41,598 nt of DNA. It comes from Deinococcus sp. Its GTDB lineage: Bacteria; Deinococcota; Deinococci; Deinococcales; Thermaceae. Made by a program: the position numbers and the translations under genes. The stretch is taken from assembly GCA_023382135.1 (NCBI GenBank), contig JAMCQK010000127.1, forward strand, positions 1 through 41,598, written 5' to 3'. Position 1 is the first letter of the stretch. Each line of letters begins with the position of its first letter. The notes under the pieces are model-generated. The model made no database searches. It was not told the origin of the DNA and worked only from the letters and a program-made list of their open reading frames with translations. This document shows, in pieces, positions 6,986 to 9,085 of the stretch.

Positions 6986-9085
6986 ATGCCCGATTCCAGG
7001 GGCCGCTTTGGCGCTTTTGGCGGTAGATATGTGCCCGAAACCTTGATTCCCGCACTCGAGGAGCTGACACGCGCTTACCAGGAGGTAAAAAGCGATCCAG
7101 CTTTTTTGGAGGAGTACCGCTACTACCTGCGCGATTTTGTCGGCAGACCTTCGCCCCTGTACTTTGCCGAACGGCTTACCAGACATCTGGGCGGAGCAAA
7201 AATCTACTTGAAGCGCGAAGATTTAAACCATACCGGCGCCCACAAGATTAACAACACTTTGGGGCAAGCACTTTTGACCCGGCGCATGGGCAAGAAGCGC
7301 GTGATTGCCGAGACCGGCGCGGGTCAGCACGGGGTGAGTGTGGCCACGGTAGCGGCGCTATTTGGCCTTCAGTGCGTGGTTTACATGGGCGAGGAAGATG
7401 TGCGCCGCCAAGCGCTGAACGTTTTCCGCATGAAGCTCCTGGGCGCCGAAGTCCGTCCGGTCTCAAGCGGGACCAAGACGCTCAAGGACGCCACCAACGA
7501 AGCAATCCGCGACTGGGTGACCAACGTGCGCGACACCTTTTACATCATCGGCTCGGTGGTGGGGCCCCACCCGTACCCGGCCATGGTGCGCGATTTTCAG
7601 AGCATCATTGGCGAGGAAGTCAAAATACAGTTGAAACAGCTGGAGGGCATGTCCACTCCGGATGCGGCGGTTGCCTGTGTGGGCGGAGGTTCGAACGCCA
7701 TCGGCATTTTTGCACCCTTTGCTTACTTGCCCCGCGAGCAGCGTCCCAGGCTAATTGGCGTCGAAGCCGCTGGCCACGGTCTTGCTAGCGGGCTTCATTC
7801 GGCCAGCATCAGCGCGGGGAAGCGCGGCGTTTTGCACGGAGCGTTGATGTACTTGCTCTACAACGAAGATGGCCAGATCCAGCCTGCCCACTCGGTTTCG
7901 GCGGGGCTGGATTATCCGGGCGTGGGTCCCGAGCACTCGTACTACGCGGAAGAAAAAATTGCCGAATACGTGAGCGTTACCGACCAAGAGGCGCTTGCTG
8001 GCTTTGAACTATTGAGCAAAACCGAAGGCATTATCCCCGCGTTGGAGTCGGCCCACGCTGTCGCCCACCTGGCCAAACTTGCGCCCACTATGCGCTCCAA
8101 TCAGGTGGTTGTGGTCAATTTGTCCGGCCGCGGAGACAAAGACGTTGCCGAGGTTATGCGCGTGATTGCCGAGACCGGCGCGGGTCAGCACGGGGTGAGT
8201 GTGGCCACGGTAGCGGCGCTATTTGGCCTTCAGTGCGTGGTTTACATGGGCGAGGAAGATGTGCGCCGCCAAGCGCTGAACGTTTTCCGCATGAAGCTCC
8301 TGGGCGCCGAAGTCCGTCCGGTCTCAAGCGGGACCAAGACGCTCAAGGACGCCACCAACGAAGCAATCCGCGACTGGGTGACCAACGTGCGCGACACCTT
8401 TTACATCATCGGCTCGGTGGTGGGGCCCCACCCGTACCCGGCCATGGTGCGCGATTTTCAGAGCATCATTGGCGAGGAAGTCAAAATACAGTTGAAACAG
8501 CTGGAGGGCATGTCCACTCCGGATGCGGCGGTTGCCTGTGTGGGCGGAGGTTCGAACGCCATCGGCATTTTTGCACCCTTTGCTTACTTGCCCCGCGAGC
8601 AGCGTCCCAGGCTAATTGGCGTCGAAGCCGCTGGCCACGGTCTTGCTAGCGGGCTTCATTCGGCCAGCATCAGCGCGGGGAAGCGCGGCGTTTTGCACGG
8701 AGCGTTGATGTACTTGCTCTACAACGAAGATGGCCAGATCCAGCCTGCCCACTCGGTTTCGGCGGGGCTGGATTATCCGGGCGTGGGTCCCGAGCACTCG
8801 TACTACGCGGAAGAAAAAATTGCCGAATACGTGAGCGTTACCGACCAAGAGGCGCTTGCTGGCTTTGAACTATTGAGCAAAACCGAAGGCATTATCCCCG
8901 CGTTGGAGTCGGCCCACGCTGTCGCCCACCTGGCCAAACTTGCGCCCACTATGCGCTCCAATCAGGTGGTTGTGGTCAATTTGTCCGGCCGCGGAGACAA
9001 AGACGTTGCCGAGGTTATGCGCTTGATGGCCGAAGCCAGTGCTGGGAGTACTGGGGTTGCGCCGAGAGAGGTGGTGCATGTCTAG
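6986..9085 (+). CDS. trpB: tryptophan synthase beta chain carrying an internal 287-codon tandem duplication
   Basis: The PLP-lysine motif [11 protein letters not shown] occurs once. GAGQHG and GGGSNAIG occur twice. I chose the start at ATG 6986 ([20 protein letters not shown]). GTG 6965 or the ORF-track start 6908 are alternatives. Without the duplication the protein would be about 412 aa. Confidence 0.9.
7297..9022. repeat. perfect direct tandem duplication, period 861 bp
   Basis: 7297-8161 and 8158-9022 are identical by line-by-line comparison. The overlapping alternate-frame ORFs in the ORF track are also duplicated exactly (7372..7788 = 8233..8649 and 7751..7987 = 8612..8848). The copies share the 4-nt junction GCGC. 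Confidence 0.95.

What the first reader, a model, noticed from the sequence alone, without database searches (positions are those of the whole stretch)
7297..9022. Perfect 861-bp in-frame tandem duplication inside trpB
Bases 7297-8161 are repeated exactly at 8158-9022, a period of 861 bp or 287 codons. The two copies share a 4-nt GCGC microhomology at the junction: AAGAAGCGC|GTGATT upstream and TTATGCGC|TTGATG downstream.

The reading frame is preserved, so the predicted TrpB is about 700 aa instead of about 412. It has one copy of the PLP-lysine segment (HTGAHKINN) and two copies of everything from [11 protein letters not shown] to DKDVAEVMR, including the GGGSNA phosphate loop.

I saw no divergence between the copies. 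The event is therefore very recent, an assembly or collapse artefact, or artificial. If real, it is a snapshot of microhomology-mediated duplication in an essential biosynthetic gene, with unknown effect on the alpha2-beta2 complex.
Basis: seen in the sequence. Interest (0 to 1): 0.7.

Follow-up and report, generated by a model that had tools for sequence, protein, structure and literature searches.

The report
One-off tandem duplication inside trpB
A tryptophan-synthesis gene carries a perfect 861-base head-to-tail repeat that is seen in this one assembled contig and in no other assembly of the same bacterium, so it is either a very recent unstable mutation or a sequencing or assembly error, and ordinary either way.

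Summary
Window 7297-8161 equals 8158-9022 exactly, with an offset of 861 nt (287 codons) and one shared GCGC at the joint. This gives a 725-aa TrpB ORF instead of 438 aa.

The duplication was not planted. A 309-aa NCBI/nr protein (MR|VIAETG...) that can only be read across the new junction is recorded from a contig of 41,598 nt, which is the window's length.

It is not a property of the organism, a Deinococcota MAG population. Twelve other contigs, from about ten samples and 98.6-99.95% identical in DNA, carry a complete single-copy trpB. Several have a flanking haplotype identical to the window's over up to 6 kb. The junction 30-mer is absent from the GTDB representative genomes and JGI metagenomes. 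No protein-cluster representative among 5.8 billion spans the junction.

The 4-nt microhomology is mildly non-random (p about 0.02). That argues against blunt contig concatenation. It fits template switching in the cell, or chimera formation during sample preparation.

Without reads the two remaining readings cannot be separated: a real, very recent, reversible duplication in the sampled DNA (about 0.5), or an artefact (about 0.4). The kind of event is already known and the interest is low.

The parts
6908..9085 (+). trpB ORF as it stands in the window: 725 aa. It would be 438 aa without the duplication. GTG at 6965 is a possible true start.
   Evidence: ORF list. PF00291 E=3e-80 in two stretches. 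About 80% identical to Thermus thermophilus TrpB 1X1Q. A conspecific annotation, P0121, starts at MKLPSYP.
7229..7255 (+). HTGAHKINN motif with the PLP-binding lysine (K113, equivalent to Salmonella K87). Present once, outside the repeat.
   Evidence: Read from the sequence. Invariant columns H108-N116. Alignment to solved TrpB structures.
7297..8157 (+). Copy 1 of the 861-nt unit. It encodes R131/V132 to M417/R418, from [11 protein letters not shown] to DKDVAEVMR, and includes GGGSNA at 7682-7699.
8158..9018 (+). Copy 2 of the unit, 100% identical to copy 1, with GGGSNA at 8543-8560.
8150..8170 (+). New junction, GGTTATGCGC|GTGATTGCCGA. [quoted passage not shown] The same GCGC occurs at 7297-7300 and 9019-9022.
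   Evidence: The junction 30-mer is absent from genome contigs and metagenome contigs.
8155..9085 (+). The 309-aa CDS as recorded in NCBI/nr for this contig (P0122, MRVIAETG...). [quoted passage not shown]
   Evidence: GAGG lies only 2 nt before the ATG.
9079..9854 (+). trpA (258 aa from ATG 9079). It overlaps the trpB stop codon by 8 nt (ATGTCTAG), so the coupling is unchanged by the duplication.
   Evidence: PF00290 E=7e-82. The same 8-nt overlap is called in L001 and the other loci.

Best explanation
This is a real but very recent, non-fixed tandem duplication with a short junction, present in the DNA of the sampled population and threaded into the consensus by the assembler.

Inferred mechanism: during replication a nascent 3' end finishing in ...ATGCGC (window 8161) came off its template. 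It re-paired through the four bases GCGC with the identical tetranucleotide 861 nt behind (7297-7300) on the sister or lagging-strand template. Synthesis resumed there and copied the segment a second time. This is template switching, or slipped misalignment, and does not need RecA.

Shown: two head-to-tail identical units with a single GCGC at the joint, no longer flanking repeat, and the reading frame kept.

Predicted consequence (inferred): residues 1-418 still make up a whole TrpB core. That core is followed by a second partial core, equivalent to Salmonella residues about 105-389. The partial core lacks the first 130 or so residues, including the PLP lysine, so it cannot fold or catalyse on its own. 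The native 20-residue tail, the stop codon and the 8-nt overlap with trpA are unchanged. Homologous recombination between the 861-nt repeats would restore the wild type exactly, so the allele is unstable and transient.
For: The repeat is exact and in frame. The junction is in the deposited record: P0122 from a 41,598-nt NCBI contig. In any k-mer or read-consensus assembler, every junction k-mer must have come from reads, and graph assemblers collapse repeats rather than expand them (my inference about assemblers, not a tool result).

Microhomology of 4 nt or more occurs at only 1.9% of random endpoint pairs. That disfavours blunt in-silico concatenation and fits template switching.

The flanks show no haplotype switch at the junction. 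The de-duplicated window is identical to L005 over 6.2 kb and to L006, L016 and L017 over several kb. The duplication is therefore a single event on a known haplotype.

Spontaneous duplications with short or no junction homology are common at low frequency in bacterial populations, and tandem repeats are unstable (PMC3411829; PMC11721125; bioRxiv 10.64898/2026.05.22.727201).
Against: No independent support exists. Twelve complete conspecific trpB genes from about ten samples are single copy. The junction is absent from two public DNA collections and from all protein-cluster representatives.

A probably harmful or at best neutral intragenic duplication must reach a high frequency in a natural population before an assembler will call it, and that is uncommon.

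In a study with experimental verification, junctions with less than about 7-11 nt of microhomology could not be told apart from library chimeras (PMC3411829).

trpB assembles poorly in this population (breaks at 7307, 7534 and 7561, and a 10-N gap at 7672-7769). The left endpoint lies inside a 27-mer that is exactly conserved across phyla.
Confidence: 0.5

Rival explanations
1. Artefact: the junction never existed in a cell. It arose in one of two ways. In vitro, as a chimeric molecule from template switching during whole-genome or library amplification, copied enough times to survive k-mer filters. Or in silico, through over-traversal of a spurious loop edge, a scaffolder, gap-closer or polisher join, or a merge of overlapping contigs from several assemblies. 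It was then written into the contig.
For: The duplication is unique to one contig among all conspecific assemblies, including ones with an identical flanking haplotype. The junction is absent elsewhere.

trpB is a repeated trouble spot. L017 starts at 7307, 10 nt inside the left endpoint. L016 starts at 7534, L101 ends at 7561, and L097 has a 10-N gap with chimeric edges. The left endpoint lies in a 27-mer shared exactly with Acidobacteriota, Gallionella, Cupriavidus, Halomonas and others. Conserved sequence shared among organisms is a recognised cause of metagenome misassembly (PMC9661791).

Copies identical to the base are what repeated use of one graph edge produces. Junctions of 4 nt are within the range of chimeric reads (PMC3411829).
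Against: Blunt concatenation would give 4 nt or more of microhomology only 1.9% of the time. Assembler overlap steps need many more than 4 nt (my knowledge of common defaults, not tested). Random ligation chimeras rarely join two points 861 nt apart in the same orientation (inference). There is no haplotype switch or other structural anomaly at the junction, and the rest of the window is colinear with other assemblies. The break at 7307 in L017 is better explained by k-mers shared between species (the Ile codon ATT or ATC at 7306) than by this junction.
Confidence: 0.42
2. The duplication was inserted artificially into the window and is not in any public record.
For: The copies are perfectly identical and the 725-aa product is absent from the 15-billion-protein collection.
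Against: P0122 (309 aa, MR|VIAETG...) exists in NCBI and nr, and its only contig is 41,598 nt long, the same as the window. That N-terminus can be read only across the new junction.
Confidence: 0.01
3. A stable, selected tandem-core TrpB that is characteristic of this lineage.
For: The frame is preserved and the trpB-trpA coupling is intact.
Against: All conspecific and related TrpB proteins are 402-438 aa. The copies show no divergence. The second copy lacks the PLP lysine and about 130 N-terminal residues of the fold. Being in frame has a one-in-three chance.
Confidence: 0.03

Closest known systems
Short-junction, RecA-independent tandem duplications in bacteria (Salmonella and E. coli work of Roth, Andersson and colleagues; spontaneous rearrangement survey PMC3411829; classification in bioRxiv 10.64898/2026.05.22.727201)
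   Same: Head-to-tail direct copies, only a few bases of homology at the endpoints, no long flanking repeat, and an unstable product that reverts by recombination between the copies.
   Different: Those cases were confirmed by PCR, probes or read counts, and are usually multi-gene segments selected for dosage. Here the unit is 861 nt inside one gene, leaves out the gene's start, gives no dosage benefit and has no read-level confirmation. The confirmed duplication junctions in PMC3411829 had 11 nt or more of microhomology, against 4 nt here.
Metagenome misassembly at conserved or repeated sequence (metaMIC, PMC9661791)
   Same: A structural difference confined to one assembly, in a gene where other assemblies of the same population break, with an endpoint in DNA shared exactly with unrelated taxa.
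   Different: Typical errors are collapses, relocations and inter-genome joins. An exact expansion with a 4-nt junction, and no foreign sequence or haplotype switch, is not the usual signature.
Canonical tryptophan synthase beta subunit (T. thermophilus 1X1Q, Salmonella 1BKS and related entries)
   Same: About 80% identity to 1X1Q over the whole core, the PLP-lysine motif, the GGGSNA phosphate loop, and trpA immediately downstream with overlapping stop and start codons.
   Different: 725 aa instead of about 400-440. Residues equivalent to Salmonella about 105-389 occur twice.

Membership tests
TrpB (tryptophan synthase beta, PF00291, fold-type II PLP enzyme) | Significant match to the PALP domain and to solved TrpB structures | tested here: met
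   PF00291 E=3e-80. 1X1Q E=2e-210 for the de-duplicated protein.
TrpB (tryptophan synthase beta, PF00291, fold-type II PLP enzyme) | PLP-lysine motif HxGAHK and GGGSNA phosphate loop | tested here: met
   HTGAHKINN is present once (7229-7255). GGGSNA is present twice (7682-7699 and 8543-8560)..
TrpB (tryptophan synthase beta, PF00291, fold-type II PLP enzyme) | Adjacent, translationally coupled trpA | tested here: met
   PF00290 protein at 9079-9854, with an 8-nt overlap.
TrpB (tryptophan synthase beta, PF00291, fold-type II PLP enzyme) | Single catalytic core of about 400-440 aa | tested here: not met
   725 aa in the window, against 402-438 aa for the 120 best homologues.
Short-junction (microhomology) tandem duplication | Direct head-to-tail copies with no spacer | tested here: met
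   The offset of 861 nt equals the unit length, and the 865-nt run is exact.
Short-junction (microhomology) tandem duplication | Only a few bases of homology at the endpoints and no long flanking repeat | tested here: met
   GCGC only. No other repeat of 20 nt or more bounds the unit. Chance of 4 nt or more = 0.019.
Short-junction (microhomology) tandem duplication | Junction present in native DNA molecules (split reads, doubled coverage, amplicon) | not testable with these tools
   No reads are available. The only indirect support is that the junction is in the deposited contig.
Short-junction (microhomology) tandem duplication | Seen in an independent sample or assembly (heritable allele) | tested here: not met
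   All 12 complete conspecific trpB genes are single copy. The junction is absent.
Assembly or sequencing artefact | Absent from independent assemblies of the same haplotype | tested here: met
   L005, L006, L016 and L017 are identical to the de-duplicated window around trpB. L005 and L006 span the whole gene in single copy.
Assembly or sequencing artefact | Endpoints coincide with graph branch points or contig ends | tested here: inconclusive
   The left endpoint is inside a 27-mer conserved across phyla and 10 nt from the start of L017. No break was seen at the right endpoint. One of four observed breaks falling this close has a chance probability of about 0.12 (my estimate).
Assembly or sequencing artefact | No read support for the junction, and unit coverage equal to the flanks | not testable with these tools
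   Needs the raw reads of the source sample.

The most novel reading that the evidence does not exclude
The duplication is real, dominant in the sampled population (perhaps kept alongside wild-type copies in a polyploid Deinococcota cell), and expressed as a 725-aa TrpB. In that protein the extra core, which lacks the PLP lysine, is tolerated or pairs with the intact core. That would be a natural snapshot of the first step of domain accretion in a PLP enzyme.
Probability: 0.05. Interest if true: 0.4.

Novelty: already known. Interest (0 to 1): 0.12.

Why it matters
It matters little for biology. If real, it is one more transient microhomology-flanked duplication, caught in a metagenome, in a gene that is dispensable when tryptophan is available.

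Its practical value is as a data-quality flag. The public record carries a 725-aa trpB ORF, annotated instead as a 309-aa fragment. This should not be taken as a lineage trait or used in TrpB family alignments, pathway-completeness calls or auxotrophy predictions until it has been checked against reads.

Tried and rejected
1. Junction 30-mer scans of the GTDB representative genomes and JGI metagenomes returned no hits.

2. The follow-up scans used the normal left-boundary 27-mer to find the species representative. They returned only unrelated phyla, because that 27-mer is conserved far beyond this species. They gave no conspecific loci, but they did show why assemblies break there.

3. The junction-peptide search was first run in the wrong frame and wasted. 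The repeat in the correct frame found no protein spanning the junction. The six hits checked that covered more than half the query are ordinary C-terminal TrpB fragments.

4. I tried to find contigs from the window's own sample through allele-specific proteins: P0122, the TIM protein and the 605-aa protein. None is on record in the contig index, so neither the source run nor the assembler could be identified.

5. A paper search for the run and assembly accessions of related contigs found nothing.

6. AlphaFold2 on the 725-aa protein gave a mean pLDDT of 66.9, with copy 2 scoring lower than copy 1. The alignment covers only copy 1, so this says nothing reliable about folding.

7. I considered whether the start of L017 at 7307 shows the junction in a second sample and rejected it. 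The contig starts 10 nt inside the unit and reads through the right endpoint without a break. k-mers shared between species explain it better.

8. The promoter and terminator scan showed nothing relevant.

Full report
**Observation.** A scan of the whole window at offset 861 finds one exact run of 865 nt, 7297-8161 = 8158-9022, and nothing else of 15 nt or more at that offset. The repeat finder gives the same pair at 100% identity. The unit is 861 nt, or 287 codons. The extra four bases are a GCGC present at the left edge (7297-7300), at the joint (8158-8161) and at the right edge (9019-9022). ORF 6908-9085 is open for 725 aa and matches PF00291 in two stretches. It has one HTGAHKINN motif with the PLP lysine (7229-7255) and two GGGSNA loops.

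**The gene and its setting.** Removing one unit gives a 438-aa protein identical to P0001. That protein is about 80% identical to Thermus thermophilus TrpB 1X1Q and aligns end to end with Salmonella TrpB. The neighbourhood is a normal housekeeping region: an M29 peptidase gene on the minus strand upstream, then trpA overlapping the trpB stop by 8 nt, then an N6/N4 DNA methylase and an aminotransferase. The closest named relatives are Meiothermus, Calidithermus and Thermus TrpB at 76-82%. One conspecific MAG is labelled Deinococcus sp.. By motif alignment, using the Salmonella numbering from my own knowledge of that sequence and the ranges, the unit runs from R131/V132 to M417/R418. That corresponds to Salmonella residues about 105-389. 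It starts a few residues into the COMM domain and ends eight residues before the C-terminus. The PLP lysine K113 (Salmonella K87) and the first 130 or so residues lie outside the unit.

**The duplication was not planted.** The 725-aa product is not in the 15-billion-protein collection. The cluster of P0001, however, contains P0122, a 309-aa protein from NCBI and nr that starts MRVIAETG. Its only contig is 41,598 nt long, exactly the window's length. The sequence MR followed by VIAETG exists only across the new joint; the wild type reads KKRVIAETG. The duplication is therefore in the deposited public contig. The annotators called a 309-aa fragment starting at ATG 8155.

**It is not a property of the organism.** Exact-protein look-ups gave twelve contigs with a complete trpB (L001-L009, L011, L014, L015). 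They come from ENA, NCBI and Logan assemblies of about ten samples and are 98.6-99.95% identical to the window in DNA. All are single copy with the same gene order. Against the de-duplicated window, L005 has no difference over 6.2 kb around trpB, and L006, L016 and L017 have none over several kb. The duplication is thus the only difference on a haplotype that exists elsewhere in single copy, and there is no haplotype switch at the joint. The 30-mer across the joint is absent from the GTDB representative genomes and from JGI metagenome contigs. An 80-aa peptide centred on the joint finds no cluster representative that spans it. The hits covering more than half of it are ordinary C-terminal fragments.

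**What the junction says.** For random endpoint pairs in this sequence, microhomology of 4 nt or more occurs 1.9% of the time. A blunt end-to-end join of two overlapping contigs is therefore disfavoured. A process that uses short pairing is favoured: template switching or slipped misalignment in the cell, or template switching in vitro. Being in frame has a one-in-three chance and carries little weight. Zero divergence carries none, because an assembler that walks twice through one graph edge makes identical copies by construction (my inference).

**Reasons for caution about the assembly.** trpB is hard to assemble in this population. L017 starts at 7307, L016 starts at 7534, L101 ends at 7561, and L097 (GCA_023489185.1) has a 10-N scaffold gap at 7672-7769 with mismatched edges. 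The left endpoint lies within GGCAAGAAGCGCGTGATTGCCGAGACC. That 27-mer is exactly conserved in 29 representative genomes from many phyla and in 45 JGI contigs, which are otherwise only 73-80% similar to the window. Conserved sequence shared among organisms is a recognised cause of metagenome misassembly (PMC9661791). I do not read the start of L017 as a second sighting of the junction. It begins 10 nt inside the unit, just after a third-position Ile codon, and runs through the right endpoint unbroken.

**Weighing the two live explanations.**

- *For a real event.* Junction k-mers in a contig must come from reads. Graph assemblers collapse repeats rather than expand them. The microhomology fits a biological mechanism, and the flanks are clean. 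Spontaneous duplications with short or no junction homology are common at low frequency, and tandem repeats are unstable (PMC3411829, PMC11721125, bioRxiv 10.64898/2026.05.22.727201).
- *For an artefact.* There is no independent support. The gene assembles poorly. A probably harmful intragenic duplication would have to reach a high frequency in nature. Junctions with less than about 7-11 nt of microhomology could not be told apart from chimeras when tested experimentally (PMC3411829).

I put a real, recent, non-fixed duplication at about 0.5 and an artefact at about 0.42. Only the reads can decide.

**Consequences if real (inferred).**

- Residues 1-418 form a complete TrpB core.
- The following 287 residues repeat most of the core without its N-terminal third and without the PLP lysine. 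They cannot form an active site and probably burden folding or solubility.
- The native tail, the stop codon and the trpA overlap are unchanged, so trpA expression should be unaffected.
- Recombination between the two 861-nt copies would restore the wild type precisely.
- An AlphaFold2 model (mean pLDDT 66.9, copy 2 lower than copy 1) is uninformative, because the alignment covers only copy 1.

**Verdict.** It is unique to one deposited contig and is not a lineage trait. Its main use is as a flag on the public record.

Noticed in passing
window, 30 sites, e.g. 1613, 9512, 10630, 16410, 18543, 20100, 34576: The palindromic octamer CCTCGAGG, often extended to GGCCTCGAGGCC, occurs 30 times against 1.0 expected from dinucleotide shuffles (maximum 5 in 100 shuffles). 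Of the 27 genic sites, 24 are in the frame xxC CTC GAG Gxx (Leu-Glu), on both strands. CTCGAG encodes 43 of 141 Leu-Glu pairs. None lies in the trpB unit. The cause could be codon-pair bias or a genome-wide motif. A DNA methylase gene sits at 9854-10699.
   Followed up: partly
window 7287-7313: The 27-mer GGCAAGAAGCGCGTGATTGCCGAGACC, which encodes GKKRVIAET, is exactly conserved in trpB of 29 GTDB representative genomes from many phyla and in 45 JGI metagenome contigs. Those sequences are otherwise only 73-80% similar to the window. It is a likely branch point between genomes in assembly graphs.
   Followed up: partly
L097 5043-5059 (GCA_023489185.1, JAMDCB010000072.1), equivalent to window 7672-7769: A conspecific MAG has a 10-N scaffold gap inside trpB around the GGGSNA loop, with mismatched bases at both edges. 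Its trpB is therefore annotated as two fragments of 236 and 153 aa.
   Followed up: yes
window 12608-12803 (N-terminal part of the triose-phosphate isomerase gene and the spacer before pgk): There are 15 substitutions within 200 nt relative to most conspecific contigs. L011 and L014 share most of the window's alleles. This looks like a recombination tract or two co-existing haplotypes. The window's TIM protein is not on record anywhere else.
   Followed up: partly
window 1-23: The first 23 nt (GCCCGCACCCGGCCCCGGCGGGC, a GC-rich hairpin followed by TTTT) do not match the other assemblies, which continue with different sequence upstream. This is either a strain-specific replacement or a chimeric contig end.
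   Followed up: no
window 9854-10699: An N6/N4 DNA methyltransferase gene (PF01555) starts at the last base of the trpA stop codon. It is conserved in this position in all conspecific contigs, with no restriction-enzyme gene recognised beside it.
   Followed up: no
window 6908-6967: The trpB ORF has a 19-codon N-terminal extension ([19 protein letters not shown]) that is not shared by homologues. One conspecific annotation starts at the GTG at 6965 (MKLPSYP). The true start is uncertain.
   Followed up: no
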